64,000 bases of DNA from Escherichia coli (GTDB taxonomy: Bacteria > Pseudomonadota > Gammaproteobacteria > Enterobacterales > Enterobacteriaceae), in NCBI RefSeq assembly GCF_003018115.1, contig NZ_CP027457.1, one strand, 5' to 3'. The notes under the pieces were generated by a model. That model saw only the letters and a program-made list of their open reading frames with translations. It did not search any database and was not told where the DNA came from. Positions 18,013 through 62,045 of the stretch are shown piece by piece. Made by a program: the position numbers and the translations under genes. How positions within the stretch are numbered: the first letter of the stretch is position 1; the number at the start of each line of letters is the position of its first letter.

Positions 18013-18049
18013 GCTAAAACCGCAAAAGCCAGTCCGCTGGACTGGCTTT
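18013..18049 (-). terminator. rho-independent terminator downstream of ytjA
   Basis: AAAGCCAGTCC-GCT-GGACTGGCTTT hairpin followed on the minus strand by a U-rich tract. Confidence 0.6.
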
Positions 18050-26889: not shown

Positions 26890-27507
26890 ATTTCCTCCAC
26901 ATCCACTGTCTAAAAATTATGATGGTTTATTCAGGATATTCATTCCTTAAATGTTTCCAGCAAATTAATAGATTAAGCGAATAAATTATCCTTAGCATTC
27001 ACTTTCATATCAGCATACTCCTGCTGCACAACAACTCCACTGCATGTGTCAGAAGGTTAGCATCAAATGATAACCTGGTGAAATAGCCTGGAGACATTTA
27101 AAATATCTACATTAAGTTGTTAGGAATACTTAATGAAAAACAGAAATCACATTCATTTAATTTATAATTAAATGATATCCCTTCCCGCAGAATGCAAAAT
27201 CACACAACCAATATTTATTCAATGAAATCTGATGGTTTTAGCTTGTTAACATTAAAAAACGTGCCCGGTTATCTATTATCCTGATTCGTAAAGGCCAAAC
27301 AATAAATTCATTATGATGATAATATTCATGTGATAGTTTGTTTGCGGCGAGAGATAATTCGCTTTTTATCACCGAGCTTCTCCCGATAACCAGGATTAAT
27401 CAGCGCAATTTTGATCTTAACCTACCGCAAAACAACCGTGCTTCATGATACAAATGGATTCTCATTATCTGAACAATACGCAGCACGTCTATGACAAAGG
27501 GCGAGTT

Positions 27508-33225: not shown

Positions 33226-33260
33226 GATGTGTAGGTCGCATAAGGTGCGACCTACACATC
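33226..33260. repeat. perfect 15-bp-arm palindrome downstream of opgB (REP-like hairpin, possible terminator)
   Basis: GATGTGTAGGTCGCA-TAAGG-TGCGACCTACACATC. Confidence 0.6.
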
Positions 33261-37007: not shown

Positions 37008-37016
37008 ACTCCCTAT

Positions 37017-37048
37017 GCCCGATAACATTTTGCTTATCGGGCATTTTT
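37017..37048 (+). terminator. rho-independent terminator between convergent lgoT and tsr
   Basis: GCCCGATAA / TTATCGGGC stem (37017-37025 / 37034-37042) followed by TTTTT. Confidence 0.7.
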
Positions 37049-38838: not shown

Positions 38839-39285
38839 TTATTCATTATCGCCCGGGATGTCTTCTTGTCGGGAATTGCCCAGAGCAATAAATTCCTCTA
38901 ACAGATGGGTTAACTGTTGCATTTTCTCGGCAGTAAACTGAGCTTCAATCTGCCGATAGGCTTCTTCAATCTGTGTCTGGGCGCGGTTATACAGCGCCTG
39001 CCCCTCTTTGGTTAGCGAGATATAGAGCTTCCGCTGATCATTGATCGGCTTTAATCGCAACACTAAACCGTCGCGTTCCATCCGCGTGAGGATCCCGGTC
39101 AGGCTTGGGCGCAAAATGCAGGCGCGATACGCCAGATCGTGAAAATCCATTGATGGGCTTTCCGCCAGAATACGCACGATGCGCCACTGTTGCTCAGTCA
39201 AATTATGCCGTTTAACGATTGGGCGAAAATAACTCATCGCCGCTTCTCGCGCCTGGAGCAACGCAATGGTTAGTGAGTCGTGCAT
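38839..39285 (-). CDS. hpaR: MarR-family repressor HpaR of the hpa meta-cleavage operon (148 aa)
   Basis: ORF track; start at internal ATG giving MHDSLTIALLQAREAAMSYFRP; MarR winged HTH. Confidence 0.88.
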   Translation of the reverse strand: MHDSLTIALLQAREAAMSYFRPIVKRHNLTEQQWRIVRILAESPSMDFHDLAYRACILRPSLTGILTRMERDGLVLRLKPINDQRKLYISLTKEGQALYNRAQTQIEEAYRQIEAQFTAEKMQQLTHLLEEFIALGNSRQEDIPGDNE

Positions 39286-39507
39286 TATCTTTCCCCTGAA
39301 AAATTCAAAATCATTAATATAGAAACAGTTAATCGTCACGTTACCGGGACTGCGCTGTCCCTGCAATTCCTGATTTTATCAAAATTGATGATATTTTATT
39401 AACTTACTGATATTTAATATTTTATTATCTTTAAATGTAAATAGTTTGTTAATTAGATCACATTTATATCACTTACTTTTGCCAAACTACGCAATCGGGA
39501 ATAAAAG

Positions 39508-39531
39508 TAATCATTAACATATTAATGATTA
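39508..39531. promoter_or_regulatory. perfect inverted repeat in the hpaG promoter region, candidate HpaR operator
   Basis: TAATCATTAA-CATA-TTAATGATTA, 26 bp upstream of the hpaG ATG; related half-site AAAATCATTAATAT at 39307-39320 near the hpaR start. Confidence 0.5.
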
Positions 39532-39556
39532 AGATGATCGAATCCGAGGAGTGGTA

Positions 39557-40846
39557 ATGAAAGGCACTATCTTCGCCGTAGCATTGAACCATCGCAGCCA
39601 ACTTGATGCCTGGCAGGAAGCGTTCCAGCAATCTCCCTACAAAGCCCCGCCTAAAACTGCGGTCTGGTTTATTAAACCGCGCAATACGGTGATTGGTTGC
39701 GGTGAACCGATTCCCTTTCCACAGGGTGAAAAGGTACTGAGCGGTGCGACAGTTGCGCTGATTGTGGGAAAAACGGCGACGAAAGTACGTGAAGAAGATG
39801 CGGCAGAGTACATCGCCGGATATGCGCTGGCTAACGACGTCAGCCTGCCGGAAGAGAGCTTTTACCGCCCGGCAATCAAAGCAAAATGTCGTGATGGATT
39901 CTGCCCCATTGGCGAAACCGTGGCTCTCAGCAATGTCGATAATCTGACTATCTATACCGAGATCAACGGGCGTCCTGCCGATCACTGGAATACCGCCGAT
40001 TTACAACGTAACGCCGCACAGCTGCTGAGCGCCCTGAGCGAATTTGCCACGCTAAATCCAGGCGATGCCATTCTGCTCGGCACGCCACAGGCGCGCGTGG
40101 AAATACAGCCAGGCGATCGCGTGCGTATTCTCGCAGAAGGTTTCCCGCCGCTGGAAAATCCGGTAGTGGACGAACGTGAAGTGACCACGCGCAAGAGCTT
40201 CCCAACGCTGCCACACCCGCACGGTACGCTGTTTGCCCTCGGCCTGAACTACGCCGACCACGCCAGCGAACTGGAATTTAAGCCACCGGAAGAGCCGCTG
40301 GTGTTCCTGAAAGCGCCGAATACCCTCACTGGCCATAACCAGACCTCCGTGCGCCCGAACAATATTGAATACATGCACTACGAAGCGGAGCTGGTGGTAG
40401 TTATTGGCAAGCAGGCGCGTAACGTCAGCGAAGCCGATGCCATGGATTATGTCGCGGGCTACACCGTGTGTAACGACTACGCCATTCGCGACTATCTGGA
40501 AAACTACTACCGCCCTAACCTGCGGGTCAAAAGCCGCGACGGACTGACGCCGATGCTTTCAATCATCGTGCCGAAAGAGGCGATCCCGGACCCGCATAAT
40601 CTGACCCTTCGCACCTTCGTCAACGGCGAGTTACGCCAGCAAGGCACCACCGCCGATCTGATCTTCAGCGTGCCCTTCCTGATCGCCTACTTAAGCGAAT
40701 TTATGACCCTGAATCCGGGCGACATGATCGCCACCGGCACACCAAAAGGCTTATCTGACGTGGTGCCTGGCGATGAAGTAGTGGTAGAAGTAGAAGGCGT
40801 GGGCCGCCTGGTGAACCGAATTGTGAGTGAGGAAACAGCGAAATGA
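39557..40846 (+). CDS. hpaG: bifunctional 5-oxopent-3-ene-1,2,5-tricarboxylate decarboxylase / 2-hydroxyhepta-2,4-diene-1,7-dioate isomerase HpaG (429 aa)
   Basis: ORF track; ATG 39557 preceded by GAGGA; two FAH-fold repeats. Confidence 0.92.
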   Translation: MKGTIFAVALNHRSQLDAWQEAFQQSPYKAPPKTAVWFIKPRNTVIGCGEPIPFPQGEKVLSGATVALIVGKTATKVREEDAAEYIAGYALANDVSLPEESFYRPAIKAKCRDGFCPIGETVALSNVDNLTIYTEINGRPADHWNTADLQRNAAQLLSALSEFATLNPGDAILLGTPQARVEIQPGDRVRILAEGFPPLENPVVDEREVTTRKSFPTLPHPHGTLFALGLNYADHASELEFKPPEEPLVFLKAPNTLTGHNQTSVRPNNIEYMHYEAELVVVIGKQARNVSEADAMDYVAGYTVCNDYAIRDYLENYYRPNLRVKSRDGLTPMLSIIVPKEAIPDPHNLTLRTFVNGELRQQGTTADLIFSVPFLIAYLSEFMTLNPGDMIATGTPKGLSDVVPGDEVVVEVEGVGRLVNRIVSEETAK

Positions 40847-61999: not shown

Positions 62000-62007
62000 T
62001 ACATTGA

Positions 62008-62031
62008 CCCGGTAGCGCCAGTGCTACCGGG
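62008..62031. terminator. hairpin between convergent symE and the downstream nuclease gene, probable bidirectional terminator
   Basis: CCCGGTAGC-GCCAGT-GCTACCGGG followed by TATTATT. Confidence 0.5.
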
Positions 62032-62045
62032 TATTATTCGCCGCG

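What the first reader, a model, noticed from the sequence alone, without database searches (positions are those of the whole stretch)
39508..39531. Perfect 10-bp-arm inverted repeat at the hpaG promoter with a related half-site at the hpaR start
TAATCATTAA-CATA-TTAATGATTA lies 26 bp upstream of the hpaG start codon, and AAAATCATTAATAT lies just upstream of hpaR on the other side of the 270-bp divergent region. This is the arrangement expected for a MarR-type repressor controlling both itself and the operon.
Basis: partly seen in the sequence, partly recalled or inferred. Interest (0 to 1): 0.2.

Follow-up and report, generated by a model that had tools for sequence, protein, structure and literature searches.

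The report
Known HpaR operator at hpaG promoter
The palindrome is the already-characterised binding site of the HpaR repressor at the promoter of the E. coli 4-hydroxyphenylacetate degradation operon, so the finding is correct but ordinary.

Summary
TAATCATTAA-CATA-TTAATGATTA sits at 39508-39531, 25 nt before the hpaG ATG, and a related site (39307-39320) lies 21 nt before the divergent hpaR ATG. The window is E. coli. Its HpaR protein is 148/148 identical to HpaR of E. coli W, and both sites are base-for-base identical to E. coli W, the strain in which HpaR operators were mapped (Galán et al. 2003, read here only through papers that cite it). Those papers report that HpaR binds this intergenic region at two sites, represses both hpaGEDFHI and hpaR, has one site near +47 of the hpaR promoter, and may form a repression loop.

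My analysis adds three things. The "half-site" is a full-length, degenerate second operator (39308-39331). Across 78 Enterobacterales intergenic regions, the proximal site (core ATCATTAA-YATR-TTAATGA) is always present and the distal site lies 196-205 bp away, although its distance to hpaR varies from 23 to 258 bp. An IHF-consensus core lies between the sites at a fixed 113-115 bp in 40 of 78 loci, as in the homologous NadR/FarR systems.

Verdict: interpretation supported, already known, low interest.

The parts
39508..39531 (.). Proximal HpaR operator (called OPR1 in my recollection of Galán 2003): TAATCATTAA-CATA-TTAATGATTA. The conserved core is ATCATTAA-YATR-TTAATGA (39510-39528).
   Evidence: Perfect inverted repeat. 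Identical in E. coli W. A site matching at least 14 of 20 core positions is present in all 78 Enterobacterales intergenic regions examined, usually 34-54 bp from the hpaG ATG. Top weight-matrix hit in the 64-kb window.
39308..39331 (.). Distal HpaR operator (OPR2): AAATCATTAA-TATA-GAAACAGTTA, with a perfect left arm and a degenerate right arm. It lies in the presumed hpaR leader.
   Evidence: Aligns with the proximal site at 75% identity. Second-best weight-matrix hit in the window. A homologous site ATCATTAA-YAAN-TNAAYAAT lies 196-205 bp from the proximal site in 77 of 78 loci. No changes in an E. coli-labelled lineage whose intergenic region differs at 33 of 271 positions. The literature places a site around +47 of Pr.
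39399..39411 (-). IHF-consensus core (TATCAGTAAGTTA matches WATCARNNNNTTR) between the two operators.
   Evidence: Conserved block in the 51-sequence alignment. An exact consensus match on this strand lies 113-115 bp from the proximal operator centre in 40 of 78 loci, against 0.26 expected. Binding is not tested here.
39447..39462 (.). CRP-like site TGTTA-N6-TCACA, centre 39454.5.
   Evidence: Read from the sequence and strongly conserved across genera. Assigned by consensus only. I recall, without having verified it here, that Galán 2001 reported CRP acting at -61.5 of Pg.
39479..39507 (+). Inferred Pg core promoter: -35 TTGCCA (39479-39484), 17-nt spacer, -10 TAAAAG (39502-39507). The implied start is about 39514-39516, inside the palindrome.
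   Evidence: Read from the sequence. Both hexamer regions are conserved. The automatic scan did not call it because the -10 lacks the final T. This is inference, with no transcription start site data here.
39373..39402 (-). Inferred hpaR promoter Pr: -35 TTAATA (39402..39397), 18-nt spacer, TGnTAAAAT extended -10 (ending at 39373). The implied start is about 39366.
   Evidence: Promoter scan. The implied start puts the distal operator centre (39319.5) at about +47, matching the value quoted in PMC6888825.
38839..39285 (-). hpaR, the MarR-family repressor gene.
   Evidence: TIGR02337 HpaR equivalog, E = 4.9e-60. 148/148 identical to E. coli W HpaR. The closest solved structures are NadR (5aip) and A. 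baumannii HpaR (7el2).
39557..40846 (+). hpaG, first gene of the hpaGEDFHI meta-cleavage operon.
   Evidence: NF011750, 976 bits. Annotated hpaG-hpaE-hpaD-(hpaF)-hpaH-hpaI-hpaX-hpaA-hpaB-(hpaC) in the 100%-identical genome.

Best explanation
The palindrome is the primary operator of the MarR-family repressor HpaR at Pg, the promoter of the hpaGEDFHI homoprotocatechuate meta-cleavage operon. An HpaR dimer binds the two arms (core ATCATTAA-N4-TTAATGA). The site begins one base after the likely -10 hexamer and covers the likely transcription start, so a bound dimer excludes RNA polymerase (inferred). A second, weaker, full-length operator lies 200 bp upstream, in the leader of the divergent hpaR gene at about +47. 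Occupying it represses hpaR (autoregulation). It probably also stabilises binding at the first operator through a roughly 200-bp DNA loop, possibly helped by a bend at the IHF-consensus site between the two (loop proposed in the literature, IHF role inferred). 4-hydroxyphenylacetate and 3,4-dihydroxyphenylacetate release HpaR and derepress both transcription units (literature). A CRP-like site upstream of Pg would add catabolite control (inferred from the sequence and my recollection of Galán 2001).
For: HpaR is 100% identical, and both operators are base-identical, to E. coli W, the strain used for the original mapping. Secondary reports of Galán 2003 describe binding in this intergenic region, repression of the hpaG operon and of hpaR, a site around +47 of Pr, and a proposed loop between two sites. 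Ligand responsiveness is reported. Yersinia HpaR footprints cover two TTAA-N4-TTAA sites, one overlapping the -10, 'similar to E. coli W'. The motif is specific to this region: AATCATTAA occurs 3 times in 64 kb, all here, and weight-matrix ranks 1, 2 and 4 fall here. Phylogenetic footprinting shows the proximal site in 78 of 78 intergenic regions. The best extra half-site falls 194-206 bp away in 59 of 78, against 4.2 expected (maximum 10). Operator-to-operator spacing is 196-205 bp, while the distal-site-to-hpaR distance ranges from 23 to 258 bp. Both operators are unchanged in a lineage with 33 differences in 271 bp. The predicted Pr start reproduces the published +47. The IHF core is fixed at 113-115 bp in 40 of 78 loci. 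The homologues NadR and FarR use two operators plus IHF.
Against: I could not read the primary paper, so the exact footprint borders and mapped start sites come from second-hand accounts or inference. No held paper prints the operator sequence. The Pg -10 is weak and was not called by the automatic scan. Spacing ranges over 196-205 bp, almost a full helical turn across genera, so strict helical phasing is not conserved. The constant spacing could instead reflect the fixed promoter, CRP and IHF architecture lying between the sites rather than looping. The spacing range was measured within a 193-207 bp search window; only one search was unconstrained. Serratia HpaR showed no 4HPA or 3,4HPA binding by ITC, so direct ligand binding is not established for every orthologue.
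Confidence: 0.95

Rival explanations
1. The palindrome acts at the RNA level, as a hairpin in the hpaG leader that affects transcript stability, attenuation or translation.
For: As RNA the two arms pair into a 10-bp stem with a 4-nt loop. The element lies only 25 nt from the start codon.
Against: The fold of 39500-39570 is not exceptional: -10.7 kcal/mol, z = -1.5, and 19 of 200 shuffles fold at least as well. The stem is almost all A-U and no U-tract follows it. The inferred start (about 39514-39516) lies inside the palindrome, so the transcript would carry only the right arm. Across genera the sequence of each arm is conserved rather than covarying, which fits a protein-recognition site. The related distal site has a degenerate right arm and cannot form the hairpin.
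Confidence: 0.02
2. The palindrome is bound mainly by a different protein, such as IHF, Fis, H-NS or the AraC-type activator HpaA, and HpaR acts elsewhere.
For: The region is very AT-rich. The operator core TAA-N4-TTAAT differs by one base from the reverse complement of the IHF core (TAA-N4-TTGAT), read from the sequence, and an IHF-consensus block lies 114 bp away.
Against: The literature assigns HpaR binding to two sites in this intergenic region in E. coli, and the same TTAA-N4-TTAA motif is footprinted by Yersinia HpaR. The motif co-occurs with hpaR in 78 of 78 loci. HpaA is reported to act at the hpaBC promoter, not Pg. No exact IHF-consensus match falls on the palindrome in any locus.
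Confidence: 0.03
3. It is a chance palindrome in AT-rich intergenic DNA with no function.
For: About 1% of composition-matched shuffles of the intergenic region contain some perfect inverted repeat with 10-nt arms. Another AT-rich perfect palindrome exists elsewhere in the window, at 27153.
Against: The site is conserved in sequence and position across Escherichia, Citrobacter, Enterobacter, Klebsiella, Raoultella, Kluyvera, Serratia, Hafnia and Photorhabdus. Its arms are unchanged where the surrounding intergenic DNA has diverged by 12%. A paired second site lies at a conserved distance.
Confidence: 0.005

Closest known systems
HpaR operators OPR1/OPR2 of the E. coli W hpa cluster (Galán, Kolb, Sanz, García, Prieto, Nucleic Acids Res 2003; PMC275547, not readable here)
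   Same: This is the same locus. HpaR is 148/148 identical. Both operator sequences and the whole stretch 39468-39556 are identical to E. coli W, and the intergenic region matches at 263 of 271 positions. The published features are matched: two sites, repression of both the operon and hpaR, and a site at about +47 of Pr.
   Different: Nothing functional. The window comes from another strain (100% identical to F8111-1SC3 over 551 bp), with 8 substitutions between 39335 and 39467, all outside the operators.
Yersinia pseudotuberculosis HpaR sites 1 and 2 at the hpaG1 promoter (PMC7180172)
   Same: MarR-type HpaR. Two DNase I-protected sites with a TTAA-N4-TTAA core, one overlapping the core promoter and one far upstream. 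It represses the hpa-meta operon.
   Different: The reported positions (-189 and -8) give a spacing of about 181 bp, against 200 bp here. The proximal site is centred on the -10 rather than just downstream of it. Yersinia HpaR also activates T6SS4 through a GC-richer site.
Neisseria NadR at the nadA promoter, and gonococcal FarR at farAB (PMC2791445)
   Same: NadR is the closest characterised homologue (50% identity; best PDB hit 5aip), and 4-HPA acts as its inducer. It has one high-affinity operator overlapping the promoter and one distal operator, with an IHF site between them. IHF is needed for efficient repression, and a looping model is proposed. Here an IHF-consensus core is conserved between the two operators.
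   Different: NadR controls an adhesin rather than a catabolic operon, has a third low-affinity operator on a phase-variable TAAA tract, and is not encoded divergently from its target. IHF binding and IHF dependence are not tested for the hpa region here.
Acinetobacter baumannii HpaR (PDB 7el2/7el3; Permsirivisarn et al., FEBS J 2022, not readable here)
   Same: An orthologous MarR-type repressor of 4-HPA catabolism that is released by pathway compounds.
   Different: It is reported to bind upstream of hpaA as well as the meta-cleavage operon. In this window no HpaR-type motif is found near hpaX, hpaA or hpaB.

Membership tests
HpaR operator of the E. coli hpa regulatory system | Lies in the hpaR-hpaG divergent intergenic region next to a true HpaR orthologue | tested here: met
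   TIGR02337 HpaR, 201 bits (cut-off 121), and NF011750 HpaG, 976 bits. Annotated hpaR and hpaG in 2,072 genomes.
HpaR operator of the E. coli hpa regulatory system | Sequence identity with the region of E. coli W in which the operators were mapped | tested here: met
   Both sites and 39468-39556 are identical. The intergenic region matches at 263 of 271 positions. HpaR is 148/148 identical.
HpaR operator of the E. coli hpa regulatory system | Two binding sites, with the second near +47 of the hpaR promoter | tested here: met
   A second full-length site lies at 39308-39331. The predicted Pr places its centre at about +47, as quoted. The start site is inferred, not measured.
HpaR operator of the E. 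coli hpa regulatory system | Proximal site overlaps the Pg core promoter or transcription start | tested here: inconclusive
   The best -35/-10 candidates (TTGCCA-17-TAAAAG) end at 39507, one base before the palindrome, and both are conserved. No start-site data are available here, and the automatic scan did not call this promoter.
HpaR operator of the E. coli hpa regulatory system | Direct binding by HpaR, relieved by 4-HPA, 3-HPA or homoprotocatechuate | not testable with these tools
   Reported in the literature, seen here only second-hand. The primary paper is not held.
MarR-family operator | A (pseudo)palindromic site of about 16-24 bp matching a winged-helix dimer, near the promoter of the regulated gene and often between a divergent regulator and its target | tested here: met
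   10+4+10 perfect inverted repeat with a conserved 8+4+8 core. The regulator matches MarR-family models and structures. The divergent arrangement is present in all 77 comparison loci that had enough upstream DNA.
IHF-assisted two-operator repression loop (NadR/FarR type) | Promoter-proximal and distal operators for the same repressor | tested here: met
   Two sites 196-205 bp apart in 77 of 78 loci.
IHF-assisted two-operator repression loop (NadR/FarR type) | An IHF binding site between the operators | tested here: inconclusive
   An exact WATCARNNNNTTR match lies 113-115 bp from the proximal centre in 40 of 78 loci, against 0.26 expected. This is a consensus match only. The motif also resembles an HpaR half-site, and binding was not tested.
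IHF-assisted two-operator repression loop (NadR/FarR type) | Repression depends on IHF and on operator spacing or phasing | not testable with these tools
   Needs ihf mutants and spacing mutants. The natural spacing range of 196-205 bp (189 in Pluralibacter) argues neither clearly for nor against phasing.

The most novel reading that the evidence does not exclude
Across Enterobacterales the hpa control region may be a conserved, IHF-assisted HpaR repression loop. Two operators are held 196-205 bp apart and an IHF bend site sits at a fixed 113-115 bp from the proximal operator, whatever the position of the hpaR coding sequence. This is the same architecture used by the homologous Neisseria repressors NadR and FarR, which would make it an ancestral design of this MarR subfamily rather than a peculiarity of nadA. 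A variant of this reading is that the middle block is a third, weak HpaR site overlapping the Pr -35.
Probability: 0.35. Interest if true: 0.25.

Novelty: already known. Interest (0 to 1): 0.07.

Why it matters
It matters little as a discovery. HpaR, its two operators in this intergenic region, its autoregulation and its inducers were described for E. coli W in 2003, and the window carries the identical sequences. The finding does serve as a positive control: a reader working from sequence alone recovered a real, experimentally validated operator pair. The modest added value is comparative. The conserved core is 8+4+8, not 10+4+10. The second site is a full but degenerate operator. The inter-operator distance and an IHF-consensus site are conserved across genera, which supports the published loop proposal and links it to the NadR/FarR architecture. 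The motif could also help annotate HpaR regulons or design 4-HPA biosensors.

Tried and rejected
1. I tried to read the primary paper (DOI and PMC275547) and two reviews (PMC515250 and PMC99040). None is held, so the published details come from citing papers.

2. I searched the paper library for 'OPR1/OPR2', for the operator sequence strings and for 'Superimposed levels of regulation' + IHF + hpa. None returned anything relevant.

3. RNA hairpin reading: folded the region and found it unremarkable. Rejected.

4. The spacer in L001 (TATG) is the exact reverse complement of CATA. I considered a palindrome-mediated inversion of the spacer. I rejected it as unnecessary because the intermediate TATA occurs in E. 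coli OkiPb01717 and in many genera. The spacer is simply YATR.

5. My first 'best inverted repeat' heuristic picked unrelated AT-rich or GC-rich repeats in several loci. I replaced it with weight-matrix and half-site scans with shuffle controls.

6. The full-length weight matrix scored the window's own distal site low (0.5 bits) because of its degenerate right arm, though that was still rank 2 in 64 kb. One line scored it in a register off by one base and should be ignored.

7. I looked for HpaR-type sites at other hpa promoters (hpaX, hpaA, hpaBC) and found none among the top hits.

8. The promoter scan did not call Pg. The Pg assignment rests on manual reading plus conservation.

Full report
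**1. The observation**

The sequence at 39508-39531 is TAATCATTAA-CATA-TTAATGATTA. The 10-nt arms are perfectly complementary, the spacer is 4 nt, and the repeat does not extend outward.
- The hpaG ATG is at 39557, so 25 nt separate it from the palindrome.
- The hpaR ATG is on the minus strand at 39285..39283, and the intergenic region is 271 bp.
- AAAATCATTAATAT is at 39307-39320, 21 nt from the hpaR ATG.

Composition alone makes such a repeat uncommon but not extraordinary: 1.1% of 20,000 shuffles of the intergenic region contain some perfect inverted repeat with 10-nt arms and a spacer of 10 nt or less. The motif is, however, highly specific to this spot. AATCATTAA occurs three times in 64 kb, all in these 271 bp, against 0.65 expected.

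**2. The genes and the organism**

The flanking ORFs are HpaR (TIGR02337 equivalog, 201 bits) and the bifunctional HpaG (NF011750, 976 bits). HpaE follows, and a Tsr-like chemoreceptor lies upstream. The window is E. coli. A 551-bp query across the region is 100% identical to strain F8111-1SC3 and is found in 2,072 of 5,426 complete genomes, always annotated hpaR/hpaG. That genome carries the full cluster, hpaR | hpaGEDFHI-hpaX-hpaA-hpaBC, between tsr and btsT.

**3. Link to the characterised system**

HpaR was characterised in E. coli W. I located the locus in the E. coli W genome.
- The window's HpaR is 148/148 identical to that of E. coli W.
- The intergenic region matches at 263 of 271 positions.
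- All 8 differences lie between 39335 and 39467, so both repeat elements and everything from 39468 to the hpaG ATG are identical.

The primary paper (Galán et al. 2003) is not held, but citing papers summarise it:
- HpaR, a MarR-type regulator, binds the hpaR-hpaGEDFHI intergenic region and represses both the hpaG operon and hpaR. [quoted passage not shown]
- 4-HPA and 3,4-HPA act as inducers.
- In Yersinia pseudotuberculosis, DNase I footprints of HpaR cover two sites with a TTAA-N4-TTAA core 'similar to E. coli W', one overlapping the -10 and one about 180 bp upstream (PMC7180172).

**4. Anatomy**

- **Second site.** It is not merely a half-site. 39309-39332 aligns with 39509-39532 at 75% identity. 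It reads AAATCATTAA-TATA-GAAACAGTTA, with a perfect left arm and a degenerate right arm.
- **hpaR promoter (Pr).** The promoter scan finds TTAATA-18-TGnTAAAAT on the minus strand, ending at 39373. The implied start near 39366 puts the centre of the distal site at about +47, matching the published figure. The distal operator would therefore lie in the transcribed hpaR leader, not on the promoter.
- **hpaG promoter (Pg).** I read a -35 TTGCCA (39479-39484), a 17-nt spacer and a -10 TAAAAG (39502-39507). Both are conserved across genera, but the scan did not call this promoter because the -10 lacks the final T. The palindrome starts one base after this hexamer and would cover the transcription start, which fits repression by excluding RNA polymerase. 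This step is inference.
- **CRP-like site.** TGTTA-N6-TCACA at 39447-39462 is strongly conserved. If it is centred at -61.5, as I recall from Galán 2001 (unverified), the start would be at 39516, inside the palindrome.

**5. Comparative evidence**

A scan of one genome per species returned 80 loci encoding HpaR relatives of 64-99% identity. They came from Escherichia, Citrobacter, Enterobacter, Klebsiella, Raoultella, Kluyvera, Leclercia, Serratia, Hafnia, Photorhabdus and others. 77 of them hold the divergent hpaR-hpaG intergenic region; the analyses below also include the window, giving 78 regions.
- **Proximal site.** All 78 contain a proximal site matching at least 14 of 20 core positions. 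The consensus is (A/T)TCATTAA-YATR-TTAATGA(A/T), with TTAA, the central AT and TTAA nearly invariant.
- **Distal site, unconstrained test.** A search for the best additional half-site anywhere in each region places it 194-206 bp from the proximal centre in 59 of 78 loci. Shuffles give a mean of 4.2 and a maximum of 10.
- **Distal site, sequence and spacing.** A recognisably homologous distal site, ATCATTAA-YAAN-TNAAYAAT, is present in 77 of 78 loci. The centre-to-centre distance is 196-205 bp (median 199), while the distance from the distal site to the hpaR ATG ranges from 23 to 258 bp. That range was measured within a 193-207 bp search window, so only the unconstrained test above is free of that limit.
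- **Exception.** Pluralibacter has its distal site at 189 bp.
- **Within E. coli.** A lineage whose intergenic region differs at 33 of 271 positions has no change in either operator except in the spacer. Other alleles change only the outermost arm base, the spacer (CATA to TATA), or one base of the distal right arm, toward the cross-genus consensus.

The functional core is thus 8+4+8, and the perfect 10-nt arms are partly strain-specific.

**6. The element between the operators**

The window's fourth-best weight-matrix hit, and a conserved block in the alignment (39399-39411), matches the IHF core consensus on the minus strand (TATCAGTAAGTTA). An exact WATCARNNNNTTR match lies 113-115 bp from the proximal centre in 40 of 78 loci, against 0.26 expected. 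Only one other match occurs anywhere in any of the regions.

NadR is the closest characterised homologue of HpaR (50% identity; best PDB hit). It uses a promoter-proximal operator, a distal operator and an IHF site between them. IHF is required for efficient repression, and a looping model has been proposed. FarR is described the same way. The hpa region therefore looks like the same design, which supports the loop proposed for HpaR. IHF binding and IHF dependence are not tested here. The block also resembles an HpaR half-site, so a third weak operator cannot be excluded.

**7. Rivals**

- **RNA hairpin.** Unlikely. The fold is unexceptional (z = -1.5), the inferred start lies inside the palindrome, and the arms are conserved in sequence rather than covarying.
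- **Another protein at the palindrome.** Contradicted by the literature and by the motif's strict association with hpaR.
- **Chance.** Excluded by the conservation.

**8. Verdict**

The feature is the known HpaR operator pair of the E. coli hpa cluster. Novelty: already known. Interest is low, at about 0.07. The only mildly new points are the cross-genus conservation of operator spacing and of the intervening IHF-consensus site, and the parallel with NadR/FarR.

Noticed in passing
window 39399-39411 (minus strand): An IHF-consensus core, TATCAGTAAGTTA, lies between the two HpaR operators. An exact consensus match sits 113-115 bp from the proximal operator in 40 of 78 Enterobacterales loci, against 0.26 expected. 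It also overlaps the predicted Pr -35 and resembles an HpaR half-site.
   Followed up: partly
window 39435-39462: A conserved CRP-like site, TGTTA-N6-TCACA (39447-39462), is preceded by a strongly conserved ATGTAAAT block (39435-39442) for which I have no assignment.
   Followed up: partly
window 27153-27175: A second AT-rich perfect palindrome, TCATTTAATT-TAT-AATTAAATGA (10-nt arms), lies in the yjjQ-yjjP divergent intergenic region. It is unrelated in sequence to the HpaR motif.
   Followed up: no
window 18025-18049, 33229-33257, 37015-37044, 62007-62032: These are GC-rich perfect inverted repeats with arms of 10 nt or more. The one at 37015-37044 lies between the convergent lgoT and tsr genes and looks like a terminator stem.
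   Followed up: no
L084 1460-1840 (E. coli BS-04, NZ_CP172819.1): One genome keeps a decayed fragment of the hpaR 5' end plus the intergenic region up to the Pg -35, between tsr and btsT. This appears to be a deletion scar of the hpa cluster that removed the proximal operator. The assembly looks noisy at homopolymers.
   Followed up: partly
window 39518-39521; L001; L081: The operator spacer varies as YATR: CATA (window, E. coli W), TATA (OkiPb01717 and many genera) and TATG (L001, some Serratia). With TATA the site becomes one continuous palindrome.
   Followed up: yes
L038 (Pluralibacter gergoviae): The distal operator lies 189 bp from the proximal one instead of about 199 bp, roughly one helical turn less. 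This could be a natural test of phasing.
   Followed up: no
L058-L061, L065, L067 (Photorhabdus): These intergenic regions are expanded to about 500 bp, yet the operator spacing stays at 205 bp. In some Photorhabdus species (for example L059) the proximal site is about 180 bp from the hpaG ATG rather than about 50 bp.
   Followed up: no
whole hpa region; The hpaR-hpaG region is present in only 2,072 of 5,426 complete E. coli genomes, two of them on plasmids.
   Followed up: no
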